Virus record (IMG/VR): IMGVR_UViG_3300028920_000047
Span: 1 to 64,000 of that record
DNA length: 64,000 nucleotides
Reading direction: 5' to 3' (one strand)
Origin: a virus
Part shown: positions 40,217 to 55,191 of the stretch, one piece after another
Numbering within the stretch: the stretch's first letter is position 1
Layout: every line of letters begins with the position of its first letter
Program-made: the position numbers and the translations under genes
The notes under the pieces: generated by a model
The model's input: only the letters and a program-made list of their open reading frames with translations
The model's database searches: none
Told to the model about the DNA's origin: nothing

Positions 40217-42337
40217 TTAGTAATCCGCCTTTAATTTACTAACAAACTGTGGCCAGGTGTATTTTGTATTGGCGCCATAGGTTTTATTCATCATTTCTCG
40301 TTTTGTTGAGGTTGCTGTTATTCCCAAACCTGAATTTATGGGTGAAGAAAGAATTCGCCTAACCACTGCGGCTGATGGAACATTTGTTATTGTATCTGGC
40401 ACAGTTACAGTTGAATAATTAACCGTTATAGTATCGGCTGTTTCCAATCCCATTTCAACCATACTACCAAAATATACAGAAATACTATCACCCAATCCGT
40501 TTAAGGAAGTCGTTCCTGACCAAACTGCACCAGCAGTAGGATATGACTGAAAAACCATATTATTAAAAATTACAATCACATCTCTACCATTTTGAGCGGT
40601 AGAAGTTCCACCAATGGTTATTATTGATATATTTGTATCGTGATTATCTGGGGGATAAGTTATTGCAATAGACAGATATTTGACTGTTATTGAATCTTTT
40701 GCAATATTATCTCCATCGAAAAAAACAACTAAAACACTATCATAATAATCATTCAAACTTGCTGTGCCAGACCAAGCGTTTGAACTGATATTCACAGAAT
40801 CGTTATATACCCAACCCATACCGTTTTCGCCAACATATATGCCAATTGAGTCATAATCGTCTGCGTTTGTAGTAGTTCCGCCGATATGTATTAAAACTAT
40901 TTCTGTTTCGTGATTGTCGTCTGGATATGTAATACTCATTGCTATATAAGTAACACCAATAGTGTCATAAGCGATATTAGTTCCATCATAGAATTTTACC
41001 ATAATAGAATCTGCACCAGTCAGACTTGCAGTTCCACTCCAAGCATCACTTGAAACTTCAACTGTATCTTGATATACTCCATTGACATATATTCCAACGC
41101 TATCGTGGTCGGTAGCGTCTGTTGTTACACCATCAATTTTTATCAGTTTTTGTGTTGTGTCGTGGTTATCAGCAGGGTGTGAAAATGATATAGTCGGAAC
41201 AGATGGAGAAGGATATTGACCATTAAAAAAAAGAGTAAAAAACGAATCGCCGGTCGCATCAAAACCAACAGTATCACTACCAGTTACCAAAGGCACTGTT
41301 TCAGCACTATCGCAGTTCGGCTCTAATAAATCCGTTCCTGATTCCCTTGCAAAAAGATTAAGTCCAACAGGGTCGCCCGTAATATTATACACCACATTGT
41401 CCGTATCATTATAATATATATCTTGTCCATTGTCTTGATTAATATAATAATCATCAAAATATGAATTTCTAATATAATTAGATTTAATTTGCGAATTATA
41501 ATCTTTTTCATCGTGTTCATTAAGCCACGAACCTGCCGAATAACAGCTATCAAACACATTTGAATCGCAAGCACCAGCACCAGTAAAAAATATGTTTGCA
41601 TACCACGAAGTCGTGCCAGTAACCTTTATATTATATACATAATTGTTCCGAAAATATGATGTATCACTTGTATCGTTATCATAGAGAAAAATGTTCCCGC
41701 GAGTATTTTTAAACACAGTAATAAAATTATAAGTAAAAACTGATTTTTTACCAAACCAATCCCCATAAGTACTACCACCATTAAATCGCATAAATCCTAT
41801 AAATCCAGTTGAATCACTTGTAGCAGAGTATATTACTTGGTTTGAGCCTGAATTTTGTTTTAACCTGCCTCCATTAGAAATAAAAATAACCGGTTTTTCG
41901 ATAGTCAGTCGTGAACTGATATAATAACTATCACCAATAAATGTCGAATAATCAAAAGTTCCAAATTTGATACACCACACAACGATTTGAGTTCCGTCAG
42001 CAGGGACAGTATCATCAGCATAGTCATAAGCATAGGGAATTGATTTAAGCGGAGCAGGCGGAGTTGCTTGATTAGAATTGTTATTTGCGTCATTGCCGGC
42101 TGCAAATGTAAGTGATGTATCAACCATAGTATATTCGCCACAGGTGCAGTTCATAGATAAGTCGGCAAAATCAACATTAACAAGAGGGAAAGCACAAGTT
42201 GTTTCACTTCCGCCATTAACAACTATTCTATACAATTTTTGCCCGTTGACATATATTGTATCCCACGCATATATATTTGACAAAAACAGCAACATAAATA
42301 ATATAGATATTATAATTCTCATTTTATTTTTCCTCAA
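40217..42337 (-). CDS. Secreted beta-helix + 3 Ig-like repeat protein (paralog A)
   Basis: Signal peptide, Asn-ladder repeats, three P..NHDT/NHET Ig-like units. Confidence 0.75.
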   Translation of the reverse strand: MRKNKMRIIISILFMLLFLSNIYAWDTIYVNGQKLYRIVVNGGSETTCAFPLVNVDFADLSMNCTCGEYTMVDTSLTFAAGNDANNNSNQATPPAPLKSIPYAYDYADDTVPADGTQIVVWCIKFGTFDYSTFIGDSYYISSRLTIEKPVIFISNGGRLKQNSGSNQVIYSATSDSTGFIGFMRFNGGSTYGDWFGKKSVFTYNFITVFKNTRGNIFLYDNDTSDTSYFRNNYVYNIKVTGTTSWYANIFFTGAGACDSNVFDSCYSAGSWLNEHDEKDYNSQIKSNYIRNSYFDDYYINQDNGQDIYYNDTDNVVYNITGDPVGLNLFARESGTDLLEPNCDSAETVPLVTGSDTVGFDATGDSFFTLFFNGQYPSPSVPTISFSHPADNHDTTQKLIKIDGVTTDATDHDSVGIYVNGVYQDTVEVSSDAWSGTASLTGADSIMVKFYDGTNIAYDTIGVTYIAMSITYPDDNHETEIVLIHIGGTTTNADDYDSIGIYVGENGMGWVYNDSVNISSNAWSGTASLNDYYDSVLVVFFDGDNIAKDSITVKYLSIAITYPPDNHDTNISIITIGGTSTAQNGRDVIVIFNNMVFQSYPTAGAVWSGTTSLNGLGDSISVYFGSMVEMGLETADTITVNYSTVTVPDTITNVPSAAVVRRILSSPINSGLGITATSTKREMMNKTYGANTKYTWPQFVSKLKADY

Positions 42338-42664
42338 AGGTTACTAAATTTCCAGTTGCAATTCCACCAATAATTATATATCGAAAATGCCATTGTATCT
42401 TAAATGGAAACTCATCACATTCAATTATCTTTTTTGTCGGTATTTTTGTTCTGATATATCCAGGCCGAAATTGAAAATTGTCTTTACAGGCATAATATAC
42501 TATGTCGGAATCGTTTGTCGTTGAATATACATACAATTCGCTATCGGCAGTTACAATTTCAAACAATATATCAACCGAATTGGAATCGCTGATTATCCAA
42601 CTATCGCCAGTAACATTATCCACAACATAGTTGTCCGCAAAACAAACCGAACACATAAGTAATA
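41016..42664. repeat. ~1.65-kb direct duplication, copy A
   Basis: Colinear with 45224-46872 (offset 4208 at both ends). Confidence 0.9.
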
Positions 42665-54600: not shown

Positions 54601-55191
54601 ATCCTGGGCCACATCCCCAAAAACACTTTCTAATAAAACTGAAACAGATTCTCCCCGGCTATTTAAAGCAGCTGTTCCACACCACGACGGGCTGTCGATA
54701 TCTAACGTAAAATAAATAGAGGTACAAATAGCACCATCAACATAAACATGAATATGACTACCGGTACCACAATTAGCTGTAGTACCACCTATAATAACAA
54801 TAGAAACATTTGTATCATGATTATCAAGAGGATATGTTATAGCAACACCAATAGAAGAAGTATCATAATAGTCAACATGAATAGTATCATAACCAATCAA
54901 TATACCATCATAGAATCTGGTAACAATTATGTTACCAATACCAGTTAAAGCGGCAGTACCTGAAAAAGAACTATCAGCCGCGATACTATTACTTGATTGC
55001 AAAATATTATTAGTATAAATATGAACAGAATCACCTATATCATAAACACTATTAGCGGTTCCTTGTATAGTAATTACCCTAACATTAGTATCATGATTAT
55101 CCACAGGTGAGGTTATAGTTACCGTATCCGCGAAAATCTGGTAAATAAAAAAAGCAAAAAACAATAATAATAAAATAACAATTTTTTTCAT
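48679..55191 (-). CDS. 2170-aa secreted protein with 22 tandem Ig-like repeats
   Basis: Signal peptide; 22 units of ~95 aa (ITxP.DNHDTN...GTT...GDTV.IY.N...WSGT...GDSV.V.L...YDTITV.Y). Confidence 0.85.
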   Translation of the reverse strand: MKKIVILLLLFFAFFIYQIFADTVTITSPVDNHDTNVRVITIQGTANSVYDIGDSVHIYTNNILQSSNSIAADSSFSGTAALTGIGNIIVTRFYDGILIGYDTIHVDYYDTSSIGVAITYPLDNHDTNVSIVIIGGTTANCGTGSHIHVYVDGAICTSIYFTLDIDSPSWCGTAALNSRGESVSVLLESVFGDVAQDTITIDYWGNPGINITLPANNSDTDIQIFTIYGTTNDAQAGDTIQIYTDVGLNTTIVIVDDTGNWSGTACVSNYGESVIVIFNGYSGTARDTITVNYFSTPTITINYPGNNHDTNTGIINIGGSVTHAITNDTVVIYTNATYCTTVIVSGYNGSWAGTVSVSNLNDSVWVVLHDQFGRTATDTNVVNYYNTPSIGISYPTNNHDTNINIVNIGGTTAEVGLGSYVYIYNSAGDSTDIFTITADSQNWSGTVSLFSQVGDSVMVILIDQFGVKVYDTITIKYWGIANVQINEPSNNHDTIVNIITINGTTYGSKTGDTVVIYTNTTVNTTVVLASDSGNFSGTAYISNLGDSVWVIMYNQFNARAYDTIVLNFIDTPLAGIIVPEHNSDTNLKTNLITGTTVGTSSGDTVVIYVNNVLNSIAVISGYDNNFSGTAYITNRYDSITVEVHDQFGRNGYDTINVSYVEVQITSPSDGTDTNTKIANVSGTTYNTYAGDTVYIYCDTQFNCLFVLLSDSGNFSGTVSLQHGNSRVWVKILTDSGNIQYDTISVGYFAQPQISFSMIDEYDTNTKSPTFIGTTYNTSIGDTIKIYVGSSYQTQTNLTADSGSWGCTVALSNMSDSVWVKLETRFDSILYDTISVFLHWAGITNITNNTDTNSDSISNVNIDWVGNSSNDTIYLYVNSSLCTSFVTTNETGTFNGTATLTGQADKLWLKMEPYIGVDTNHGGDSVAYDTITINYFANPVLTITYPADNHDTYISIINIGGTSYDVQVNDTVEIFVNNVLNTTVIITSLNGNFFGTAAFSDYGSNLVVKLHDQFGRNTYDTIVIDYFKTPDIAITSPANNHDTYLSTITISGTTVECHGGDTVEITNMYTRSTVYLLTGDSGTWSGTVAISGYNDSIVAILHDTYNRTAYDTISINYFGTPNIGINLSNPTDTNIQKNVISGTSYNTRDSDLVRIYVNTILQATARIVGDSGNWVDTPIIFVGIGDSLVVKLEDSFGRVYYETRTINYYSIPTIQITVPADNHDTNNSFFIIGGIASPTKAGDTVEIYTNTNLNTTVVIVSDNANWSGTAGVSSKGDSLWVVLHDSFGNILYDTITVNKYQTNPGVGIDTPATAYDTCVKVITIYGTSKSSKVGDRVRLYVNGILNSSYTLTADTGSWSGTVSLTNIGDSILARLTNFDSDVYDTITINYIGAPSVVITNFPNNHDTNIQIINVICTTKNTMLGDTIYIYVDNVLNTYAAITYYNQSFSGTAALSETSNNVSVKLVTALTGSVIYDTITVDYYGTILARISYPSNNTDTKISINTIHGTTVNSRNGDTIVLRVNGLTNSITHILTDSGTWSGTVVVGGSDSISVTLEDQFGRTVGNTVTISYYATPTISIGIPGNVNTDTNISMNWINGTTEWSQLGDTISIYVNNILNTTVYVVSDSMSWSGTVVVVSKGDSVTVKLESVLYKTSYYDTITISYYPVFTMAIMSPDTGHDTNISVITISGTTENSKVGDTVQIFDYTGTMNTNIILTSDSGSFSGTCYIAGTPYPIVVAKLANSFNNNLYNDTIQLHYLSETLSLEITYPVDNHDTNTNIIIIGGTTCQTVANVDTVYIYVNNVLNSKYTISADSDNWNGTVYVSSYGDSVSTKLVNQFGQVVQDTITVNCFANNPEIVITSMIDNNDTNVDSGTIFGTSNYSIAGDTLLIFVNSNINDTIILTENNENWSGTFQLNGIGDSVWVKLYNRYDSKVYDTITFSYVLPPSYISITYPDTNSHDTIVSRIIIMGTTRNTRLGDTVQIYVNSVLSSSTNVVSDSGSWIGYANLEGKGDSVIVKLIDQFGQVAYDSITVNFSGNPRLTTYPKPYMERIVQNKVLQAYWDGKGNTYPAIVVVDIHAFNDSTIAQLSAVMEDLYDSGLYEVYDSQILSYATNSAGSDSILINVRTTHRIYIAKTAVYTIIIERFGVNGSACSDGRVDEIEKVYYTVP

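What the first reader, a model, noticed from the sequence alone, without database searches (positions are those of the whole stretch)
40217..55191. Cassette of seven signal-peptide-bearing fibre/adhesin-like proteins inside the split terminase
Seen: the 2170, 545, 122, 766, 482, 121 and 706-aa ORFs all begin with a Sec-type signal (basic, hydrophobic, small residue). Two also carry tail-fibre-type motifs (GIG..P...HV.G, AFxGDGS.LTG, DGV....DY...ITF...P..G). Known: tailed-phage virion proteins normally assemble in the cytoplasm and lack signal peptides. Inference: these are either exported and added to virions at or after lysis, or displayed on the infected cell surface (adhesion, receptor masking, superinfection exclusion). 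Either would be an under-described extracytoplasmic phage module. It lies directly upstream of the lysis genes.
Basis: partly seen in the sequence, partly recalled or inferred. Interest (0 to 1): 0.8.

Follow-up and report, generated by a model that had tools for sequence, protein, structure and literature searches.

The report
Phage fibre/enzyme genes carrying export signals
An uncultured large phage puts ordinary bacterial secretion signals on seven neighbouring fibre-, sugar-cutting- and adhesin-type proteins, so its outward-facing gear probably matures outside the cytoplasm, where tailed phages are not thought to build parts.

Summary
Observation confirmed. All seven minus-strand ORFs (40217-55191) start, behind Shine-Dalgarno sites, with n-h-c Sec-type leaders. 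A crude hydropathy test flags 7/7 here against 4/123 elsewhere on the 106.6-kb viral contig.

The seven genes:
- A 2170-aa chain: leader, 22 Ig-like repeats (AF2 pLDDT 94) and a unique 134-aa end.
- A tandemly duplicated triplet (4208-nt spacing): a MAT/tail-fibre-type fibre (545/482 aa), a ~100-aa partner (122/121 aa) and a beta-helix (pectate-lyase-fold) protein with three Ig repeats (766/706 aa).

The Ig repeat occurs 80 or more times in giant leader-bearing type IX secretion (T9SS) cargo proteins of a 30%-GC sludge-digester MAG, the likely host lineage. The phage copies lack that C-terminal sorting domain, so they should stop in the periplasm.

A second, unrelated small phage contig (L009) has three such leader-bearing genes beside its head genes. 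I also checked that cultured Cellulophaga phages phi10:1 (gp091-095) and phi18:3 (gp085-087) have leader-bearing fibre/pectate-lyase proteins, most annotated as found in virions by MS/MS.

Best reading (~0.5): host-recognition gear that matures in the periplasm and joins virions at lysis. Rival (~0.3): envelope remodelling without virion attachment.

This scan has noted the same phenomenon before on other phage DNA. I found no paper describing it.

The parts
48679..55191 (-). 2170-aa protein: leader (55129-55191), 22 tandem ~91-aa Ig-like repeats (49084-55128), unique 134-aa C-terminal domain (48679-49083)
   Evidence: Repeat HMM finds 22 units, E 1e-23 to 1e-36 each. AF2 of one unit gives pLDDT 94, a 7-strand Ig/E-set sandwich. 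Pfam Glucodextran_B scores 26.5 bits, just under the cut-off of 27. There are 62 D-[ST]-[AILMTV] motifs.
46901..48538 (-). 545-aa leader-bearing fibre-type protein (MAT/tail-fibre-like repeats, beta-rich C-terminal domain)
   Evidence: Carries the motifs FVGDGSLLTG and VGFGTLLPDEKI. Remote hits are GIGTxxPxxKLHV-repeat proteins, four of them with Peptidase_S74. The C-terminal 90 aa is 37% identical to the same domain of P0014 on the second phage contig.
46532..46900 (-). 122-aa leader-bearing small protein; its end overlaps the ORF of the next gene
   Evidence: 89% identical to the 121-aa paralogue, with the leader the most diverged part. No family, fold or Atlas match. Not a T9SS CTD (hhalign probability 0.3%).
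44245..46545 (-). 766-aa (761 from the ATG at 46530) protein: leader, ~355-aa Cys-containing right-handed beta-helix domain, three Ig repeats, with a ~138-aa insertion inside repeat 2 (residues 508-645)
   Evidence: 81% identical to the 706-aa paralogue over 540 aa. Repeat map. The beta-helix was assigned on the paralogue.
42790..44238 (-). 482-aa leader-bearing fibre-type protein, a diverged paralogue of the 545-aa one
   Evidence: 39% identity over 137 aa, plus a shared FxGDGSxLTG segment. Two capping-loop-type motifs.
42324..42689 (-). 121-aa leader-bearing small protein, paralogue of the 122-aa one
40217..42337 (-). 706-aa (701 from the ATG at 42322) protein: leader, beta-helix domain (residues ~22-378), three Ig repeats (380-641), 65-aa tail
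   Evidence: ESM Atlas matches beta-helix, pectate lyase, DUF1565 and phage tail-fibre clusters (features 0.91-0.92; structure TM 0.53-0.64), but the Atlas model has pLDDT of only 0.57. My own AF2 run failed (pLDDT 27). Ig repeats.
40217..46900 (-). Tandem duplication of the triplet (fibre, small protein, beta-helix protein), start-to-start spacing 4208 nt, local identity up to 98%
   Evidence: protein identities.
34886..36325 (-). Context: C-terminal part of the large terminase, followed by the T4-type portal (33207-34862)
55509..56429 (-). Context: candidate N-terminal terminase part with a possible intein fragment (not verified here)
   Evidence: Only Intein_splicing at E 0.04 and nSTAND3 at E 0.036; no PDB hit.

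Best explanation
The seven genes form a late, co-transcribed module of Sec-exported, signal-peptidase-I-processed proteins that serve as the phage's outward-facing gear. It comprises a ~22-domain Ig stalk, two trimeric-fibre-type proteins, two beta-helix (pectate-lyase-fold) putative polysaccharide depolymerases on Ig stalks, and two small partners. They use the leader style and the Ig repeat of the host's own giant surface proteins, but lack the host's T9SS C-terminal sorting domain. They should therefore accumulate and fold in the periplasm, possibly picking up O-glycans on their many D-S/T-hydrophobic motifs. They would meet the cytoplasm-built particles only when the inner membrane is breached at lysis, ending up on virions as host-recognition and glycan-cutting appendages. 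Shown: the leaders, the domain make-up, the absence of the CTD, and recurrence in a second phage and in cultured Cellulophaga phages. Inferred: cleavage, periplasmic residence, glycosylation, enzymatic activity and docking onto virions.
For: - Leaders and true starts.
- Leaders are kept while the rest diverges. The 545- and 482-aa proteins share only 39% identity in one segment. The 122/121-aa leaders differ but stay hydrophobic. P0014, a 437-aa homologue on another phage contig, has its own leader.
- Amino-acid composition is unlike the phage's cytoplasm-built head and tail proteins: K 2.7% against 10-11%, E 2.8% against 7-8%, and rich in T, S, G, N and D.
- Likely host lineage: MAG G001 has 30-33% GC (phage ~31%) and 80 or more copies of the same Ig repeat in 14 or more giant ORFs. 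Its leaders end ...LIFA|DT, like the phage's ...QIFA|DT, and its C-terminal domains match TIGR04183 above cut-off.
- No phage protein matches a 17-sequence HMM of those CTDs (best E 0.29 in this genome).
- D-[ST]-[AILMTV] density is 2.86 per 100 aa in the giant, against 0.25 in the other 123 proteins and 0.75 expected from composition.
- Second phage: L009 has a portal, then head-region genes, then leader-375, an ORF of 235 aa, leader-Ig-307 and leader-fibre-437.
- Cultured precedent that I checked: phi10:1 gp091-095 and phi18:3 gp085-087 all start with Bacteroidota-type leaders. gp091-094 and gp085-087 are annotated 'structural protein ... based on experimental MS/MS proteomics analysis', include a 'pectate lyase' and a 'tail fiber protein', and lie just upstream of the endolysin region, as here.
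Against: - No virion-docking domain was found. After the leader, the mature proteins run straight into Ig or beta-helix domains.
- The contig is only ~49% complete and the baseplate region is missing, so ordinary leaderless fibres may exist elsewhere in the genome.
- Five of the seven proteins have no informative homologues.
- The beta-helix call rests on a low-confidence Atlas model, and my own fold failed.
- The D-S/T motifs are conserved repeat positions and could be purely structural.
- MS detection in Cellulophaga virion preparations could reflect co-purifying secreted proteins, and those proteins are not homologous to these.
- The host link has no CRISPR-spacer or prophage support.
Confidence: 0.5

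Rival explanations
1. The proteins are exported but never become part of the virion. They remodel the envelope of the infected cell late in infection. The beta-helix enzymes would cut capsule, EPS or surface glycans from the periplasmic side or after release, destroying receptors, easing release and preventing progeny from re-adsorbing to debris. The Ig giant and the fibres would mask or compete with the host's homologous surface proteins (superinfection exclusion).
For: - Leaders without any surface-sorting domain or virion-docking domain.
- The module sits next to envelope-type genes: a 123-aa lipoprotein and TM proteins.
- Bacteria do use exported beta-helix depolymerases on their own polymers: WceF (tailspike-like, Tat leader; PMC7949094) and VexL (signal peptide, disulfides; PMC6003464).
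- The Ig repeat is shared with host surface giants.
Against: - The Cellulophaga counterparts are annotated as detected in virions.
- Superinfection-exclusion genes are usually small and early, not 15 kb of late fibre-type genes.
- Tail-fibre-type repeats and variable C-terminal tips in duplicated sets look like host-range gear.
Confidence: 0.3
2. The cassette is passenger DNA: a host surface-protein island, or a mobile insert sitting between the two terminase parts, or an assembly chimera, with no role in the phage cycle.
For: - It lies inside a ~19-kb stretch between the two terminase parts.
- The Ig repeat family is otherwise found in cellular MAGs.
- No IMG/VR relative was found.
Against: - Same strand, same GC and tight or overlapping spacing with the late genes.
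- DNA identity to the MAG is only 68-78% within repeats.
- The host-type CTD is missing from all copies.
- Fibre-type members recur in another phage's structural module, and an eighth one lies elsewhere on this contig.
Confidence: 0.08
3. The hydrophobic N-termini are not cleaved export signals. They would be uncleaved membrane anchors, or an artefact of start-codon choice, and the proteins would be ordinary cytoplasm-assembled fibres.
For: SignalP could not be run, and cleavage is inferred from sequence only. The 122/121-aa proteins have a Cys at -3 that could be read as a poor lipobox.
Against: - Ribosome sites lie before the leaders, and none lies after them.
- All seven have small residues at -3/-1 followed by acidic or polar mature ends.
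- The style matches the leaders of the host's secreted giants.
- Seven in a row is far from chance.
Confidence: 0.05

Closest known systems
Leader-bearing virion proteins of cultured Cellulophaga phages: phi10:1 gp091-gp095 (NC_021802) and phi18:3 gp085-gp087 (NC_021794)
   Same: A run of neighbouring fibre- and pectate-lyase-type late genes that all start with host-type Sec leaders, placed just upstream of the lysis region. Most are annotated as found in virions by MS/MS. The host group uses T9SS.
   Different: No sequence homology to the proteins here. Those phages are small siphoviruses and podoviruses of a cultured flavobacterium. They have no giant Ig-repeat protein, no duplicated triplet, and Q at +1 rather than D/E/W. 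I found no paper that discusses their leaders.
MAT (mosaic adhesive trimer) fibres of Bdellovibrio bacteriovorus, non-S74 subgroup (Caulton et al. 2024, PMC10769870)
   Same: A signal peptide followed by a tail-fibre-like body carrying the capping-loop motif V-G-G/N-pi-x-x-P-x-x-x-L, ending in a beta-rich tip rather than an S74 chaperone.
   Different: MAT fibres are cellular proteins displayed on a predator's surface; these are encoded in a phage late operon. The conserved ~130-aa N-domain of MATs was not compared, and trimer formation was not tested.
T9SS-secreted giant Ig-repeat surface proteins of the candidate host (MAG JAGOBX01, e.g. P0007; related P0003-P0006)
   Same: The same ~91-aa Ig repeat (35-50% identity), the same leader style and the same composition.
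   Different: The host proteins end in a TIGR04183-type CTD or a dockerin-like end. The phage proteins end in unrelated domains, and no CTD is detectable.
Phage tailspike depolymerases, and exported bacterial beta-helix depolymerases (WceF, VexL)
   Same: A right-handed beta-helix fold is predicted for residues ~22-378 of the 706/766-aa proteins. WceF and VexL show that such enzymes can work after export.
   Different: There is no N-terminal particle-binding domain as in P22-type spikes. WceF uses a Tat leader, not a Sec leader. Activity, catalytic residues and oligomeric state are unknown here.
T4 Hoc-type Ig decoration proteins
   Same: A string of Ig-like domains followed by a different C-terminal domain; a Hoc protein appears among the weak structural matches.
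   Different: Hoc has no leader and only three Ig domains, and there is no sequence similarity. This resemblance is from my own knowledge and was not tested.

Membership tests
Sec-type (signal peptidase I) signal peptide | Positively charged n-region, 7-15-residue hydrophobic h-region, and small uncharged residues at -3 and -1 of the c-region | tested here: met
   By inspection and a hydropathy rule for all seven. The rule flags 7/7 here against 4/123 elsewhere.
Sec-type (signal peptidase I) signal peptide | Score from a trained predictor (SignalP or DeepTMHMM) and an experimentally determined mature N-terminus | not testable with these tools
   No predictor was available and no proteomics exists.
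Bacterial lipoprotein (signal peptidase II) | Lipobox [LVI][ASTVI][GAS]C at the end of the h-region | tested here: not met
   Five proteins have no Cys near the site. The 122/121-aa proteins read YSVC and CSVC, with V at -1, a poor lipobox, and CFA|DN fits signal peptidase I better. I treat the two small proteins as uncertain.
T9SS cargo | C-terminal sorting domain (TIGR04183 / Por_Secre_tail, CHU_C, or the host's own variant) | tested here: not met
   Pfam and NCBIfam gave nothing. HMMs of 5 and then 17 host CTDs gave a best E of 0.12-0.29 in this genome, while host controls scored 1e-41 to 1e-48. hhalign of the 122/121-aa pair against the CTDs gave probability 0.3%.
MAT fibre superfamily (Caulton 2024) | Signal peptide plus the capping-loop motif V-G-G/N-pi-x-x-P-x-x-x-L in a beta-helical fibre | tested here: met
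   One motif in the 545-aa protein and two in the 482-aa protein. Remote HMMER hits go to proteins full of this motif.
MAT fibre superfamily (Caulton 2024) | Conserved ~130-aa beta-rich domain right after the leader; intertwined trimer | not tested
S74 tail-fibre/spike proteins | C-terminal Peptidase_S74 intramolecular chaperone | tested here: not met
   No Pfam hit in the 545- or 482-aa proteins, although four remote relatives carry it.
Right-handed beta-helix (pectate-lyase-like) depolymerase / tailspike | Parallel beta-helix fold | tested here: inconclusive
   The Atlas feature and structure searches agree (TM 0.53-0.64), but on a model of pLDDT 0.57. AF2 failed and there is no Pfam hit.
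Right-handed beta-helix (pectate-lyase-like) depolymerase / tailspike | N-terminal particle-binding domain; catalytic acidic residues or a Ca site | not tested
   No usable model or alignment. The mature N-terminus enters the helix region directly.
Bacterial Ig-like domain (Big / Glucodextran_B, E-set) | ~90-aa seven-strand beta-sandwich, in tandem | tested here: met
   AF2 pLDDT 94. Foldseek gives TM 0.65-0.76 to E-set, FN3 and CBM domains. There are 22 + 3 + 3 units. Glucodextran_B scores 26.5 bits against a cut-off of 27.
Bacteroidota-type general O-glycosylation substrate | Exported protein carrying D-(S/T)-(A/I/L/V/M/T) motifs | tested here: inconclusive
   The motif is about 4-fold over the composition expectation and about 11-fold over the rest of the proteome. 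However, three motifs per repeat are conserved core positions. Whether the host has the glycosylation system was not tested, and the sequon rule itself is from my own knowledge.

The most novel reading that the evidence does not exclude
Tailed phages of T9SS-bearing (FCB-type) hosts route their receptor-binding fibres and depolymerases through Sec. These parts fold, and perhaps become glycosylated, in the periplasm, and dock onto cytoplasm-built particles only at lysis. That would be a two-compartment assembly pathway for Caudoviricetes. Here it also uses Ig modules exchanged with the host's own surface giants.
Probability: 0.4. Interest if true: 0.85.

Novelty: new variant of a known kind. 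Interest (0 to 1): 0.68.

Why it matters
Textbook assembly of tailed phages is wholly cytoplasmic. If host-recognition parts are exported first, several consequences follow:
- Where and when virions become infectious would change.
- Fibres could carry periplasm-only modifications such as disulfides or O-glycans.
- Host-range prediction and expression of such fibres for engineering would need to keep or replace the leader.
- Host-type leaders on fibre genes could serve as a marker for assigning phages to hosts.

This case extends the pattern in three ways: to a large T4-like-portal phage of an uncultured digester lineage, to a 22-domain Ig giant shared with host T9SS cargo, and to a duplicated three-gene unit. 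The idea can be tested directly in the cultured Cellulophaga phages.

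Tried and rejected
- Family and sequence searches: Pfam, PHROGs, NCBIfam and PDB sequence searches of all seven proteins gave nothing beyond a sub-threshold Glucodextran_B hit.
- Word-index homologue search with the 706-aa protein: only itself and its paralogue.
- tblastn of the 706- and 545-aa proteins against 50,697 phage records: no match.
- IMG/VR scans with the 122-aa protein, the upstream terminase part, P0014 and a repeat alignment: no relatives.
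- AF2 of the 706-aa protein with a 2-sequence alignment: unusable, pLDDT 27.
- ESM Atlas for the 122-aa protein: no usable hit.
- Idea that the 122/121-aa proteins are stand-alone T9SS-CTD 'piggy-back' partners (a lead from earlier notes): rejected.
- Idea that the phage proteins carry a cryptic host CTD: rejected.
- Shared C-terminal anchor domains: only the 545-aa protein and L009-437 share one. The giant's end, the 706/766 tails and the L009-307 end are unrelated to each other and to the host giants.
- CRISPR-spacer or prophage link to MAG G001: only chance-level AT-rich matches.
- Relatives of a virus record cannot be drawn.
- Literature searches found no paper on Sec leaders on tailed-phage fibres. 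The library is limited to open-access texts.

Full report
**Where the finding sits.** The window is the first 64 kb of a 106,581-base IMG/VR virus record that CheckV rates about 49% complete, with GC about 31%. On the minus strand, read from high to low coordinates, it carries:
- a candidate N-terminal terminase part (55509-56429);
- a 98-aa ORF;
- the seven ORFs of the finding (55191 down to 40217);
- a few small envelope-type ORFs;
- the C-terminal terminase part (34886-36325; 32% identity to TerL of Bacillus phage SP-15 and Listeria phage LIS04, E 6e-49);
- a T4-type portal (Pfam Portal_T4, E 2e-37);
- prohead protease, major head protein, head cargo, tail sheath and tail tube.

The baseplate and any ordinary fibres would lie beyond the left end of the contig. 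The upstream terminase part got only a faint Intein_splicing hit (E 0.04). I therefore treat those two context claims as unverified.

**Checking the observation.** All seven ORFs begin with one to three basic residues, an uncharged hydrophobic stretch of 10-15 residues, and a site with small residues at -3/-1: IFA|DT, SYA|DG, CFA|DN, IYA|WD, LFS|EV. Each has a purine-rich ribosome site upstream, and none has a plausible in-frame start after the leader. The 766- and 706-aa ORFs more likely start at the ATG at codon 6, which keeps the leader. A simple hydropathy rule flags 7 of 7 here and 4 of the other 123 ORFs of the contig, so a run of seven by chance is about 4e-7. The four others are three short lipoprotein-like ORFs and a 399-aa fibre-like protein at 103837-105036 that also carries FHGDGSGLTG. 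SignalP could not be run.

**Anatomy.**
- *The 2170-aa protein.* It consists of a leader, 22 tandem repeats of about 91 residues, and a unique 134-residue end. One repeat folded with the 22-row alignment gives pLDDT 94 and a seven-strand Ig/E-set sandwich.
- *The 766- and 706-aa proteins.* They are 81% identical over their first 540 residues and then diverge. Each has a ~355-residue N-domain that the ESM Atlas places with right-handed beta-helix, pectate-lyase, DUF1565 and phage tail-fibre clusters (that model has pLDDT of only 0.57). Three of the same Ig repeats follow. In the 766-aa protein, the second repeat is split by a ~138-residue insertion. My own AF2 run on the 706-aa protein failed.
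- *The 545- and 482-aa proteins.* They share a 137-residue segment at 39% identity and the FxGDGSxLTG segment. An exhaustive HMMER search of 1.84 billion representatives with the 545-aa protein found only 23 proteins. Most are built of GIGTxxPxxKLHV-type repeats, and four of the ten I scanned end in Peptidase_S74. That repeat is the 'capping loop' consensus of the Bdellovibrio MAT fibres, which also start with signal peptides (PMC10769870; motif counts).
- *The 122- and 121-aa proteins.* They are 89% identical, differ most in the leader, and match nothing.
- *Duplication.* The fibre, small-protein and beta-helix genes form a three-gene unit that is tandemly duplicated with 4208-nt spacing and up to 98% local DNA identity.

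**Likely host and its own versions of these proteins.** A profile of the Ig repeat found only five cellular proteins in the 5.8-billion-protein index, all from MAGs. One lies in a 3.8-Mb sludge-digester MAG (JAGOBX01, labelled Candidatus Dependentiae). That genome holds at least 80 copies of the repeat in at least 14 giant ORFs, at 30-33% GC. Their leaders look like the phage's (for example ...SVLIFA|DT against ...IYQIFA|DT). Many end in a C-terminal domain that matches the T9SS type A sorting domain TIGR04183 above its curated cut-off, and others end dockerin-like. HMMs built from 5 and then 17 of these host CTDs find nothing in the phage proteome, while host controls score 1e-41 to 1e-48. 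DNA identity between phage and MAG repeats is only 68-78%, and no spacer-like or prophage match was found. The host assignment therefore rests on the shared repeat, GC content and leader style, and is probable rather than proven. If it holds, proteins with a Sec leader but no CTD should stop in the periplasm.

**Other signs of an extracytoplasmic life.** The seven proteins have K 2.7% and E 2.8%, against 10-11% and 7-8% in the rest of the proteome, and are rich in T, S, G, N and D. The motif D-[ST]-[AILMTV] is, from my own knowledge, the general O-glycosylation sequon of Bacteroidota. It occurs 62 times in the giant: 2.86 per 100 residues, against 0.25 in the other 123 proteins and 0.75 expected from composition. 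Three such motifs per repeat are conserved core positions, so this is a lead and not proof.

**Recurrence.**
- P0014, the one remote relative that shares the C-terminal domain of the 545-aa protein, lies on a 15-kb metagenome contig (L009, GC 30%). That contig carries a terminase fragment, a portal (phrog_1216) and head-region genes. These are followed directly by a leader-bearing 375-aa protein, a 235-aa ORF, a leader-bearing 307-aa protein made of the same Ig repeats (30-40% identity), and leader-bearing P0014. This is a different, smaller phage with the same habit.
- Earlier notes of this scan pointed to cultured Cellulophaga phages, and I checked the records myself. phi10:1 gp091-095 and phi18:3 gp085-087 all begin with Bacteroidota-type leaders ending in Q. 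gp091-094 and gp085-087 are annotated as structural proteins 'based on experimental MS/MS proteomics analysis'. They include a 'pectate lyase' and a 'tail fiber protein', and they lie just upstream of the endolysin region. They are not homologous to the proteins here.
- Four literature searches found no paper that discusses such leaders.

**Interpretation.** Export is well supported (about 0.9). What happens next is inferred.
- I favour (about 0.5) the reading that this is the phage's host-recognition and glycan-cutting gear, matured in the periplasm and joined to particles when the inner membrane is breached. Three things support this: the parts are fibre- and spike-type, they come in duplicated sets with variable ends, and they recur in structural modules. 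In addition, their counterparts in cultured phages were reported in virions.
- The main rival (about 0.3) is an exported module that acts on the infected cell's envelope without joining virions, through receptor destruction or masking, or as a release aid. Exported bacterial beta-helix depolymerases such as WceF and VexL show that this is feasible.
- Passenger DNA (about 0.08) and non-signal N-termini (about 0.05) are unlikely.
- The idea that the small 122/121-aa proteins are T9SS-tagged carriers was tested and rejected. Their role, whether partner, chaperone or tether, remains unknown.

**Novelty and limits.** Fibre, spike and Ig modules are ordinary; the Sec routing of a whole block of them in a tailed phage is the unusual part. 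The same phenomenon has been noted by this scan on other phage DNA, and it is present, uncommented, in GenBank records of cultured phages. So this is a further and somewhat extended instance, not a first sighting. It adds a large T4-like-portal phage, a non-cultured host lineage, a 22-Ig giant sharing modules with host T9SS cargo, and a duplicated triplet.

Noticed in passing
G000:C1:103837-105036 (-), outside the window: An eighth leader-bearing fibre-type protein (399 aa, with FHGDGSGLTG and a GIGT-type motif) lies near the right end of the contig, next to ORFs of 409, 238 and 256 aa. The 256-aa ORF looks leucine-rich-repeat-like by eye.
   Followed up: partly
L009:7198-11314 (metagenome contig Ga0272441_10009305): A second, unrelated small phage contig (portal phrog_1216, GC 30%) has three leader-bearing proteins directly after its head-region genes. 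One is made of the same Ig repeat, and one shares the C-terminal domain of the 545-aa protein.
   Followed up: partly
window:44608-45021 (residues ~508-645 of the 766-aa protein): A ~138-residue insertion splits the second Ig repeat of the 766-aa paralogue. By eye it resembles a sugar-binding jelly-roll module, but no family hit supports this. It is the main difference between the two beta-helix paralogues.
   Followed up: no
window:34886-36325 and 55509-56429: The C-terminal terminase part is a clear TerL homologue. The proposed N-terminal part, 19 kb upstream, shows only a faint Intein_splicing hit (E 0.04). The split-intein reading made by other first-stage notes was not tested further.
   Followed up: partly
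window:38524-38895 (-): A 123-aa ORF has a lipoprotein-like leader (…FFLIHC|S) and sub-threshold DUF1353 and 'tail assembly chaperone' PHROG hits. Two more short lipoprotein-like ORFs lie at G000:C1:91359-91885.
   Followed up: no
L010, L017-L037 (MAG JAGOBX01, handle G001): A MAG labelled Candidatus Dependentiae is 3.8 Mb, has at least 14 ORFs with T9SS type A sorting domains above cut-off, and has giant Ig-repeat proteins, some with dockerin-like ends. The taxonomic label or the bin looks doubtful.
   Followed up: partly
G000:C1:75077-81004 (+), outside the window: By eye, ORFs with QueD-, QueE- and QueC-like N-termini (for example an SGGMDS PP-loop motif) suggest a 7-deazaguanine DNA-modification pathway. 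This was not tested.
   Followed up: no
window:48539-48678 and 42690-42789: The only sizeable intergenic gaps in the cassette (140 and 100 nt) follow the giant gene and the 482-aa gene. A weak terminator-like hairpin lies at 48627-48612.
   Followed up: no
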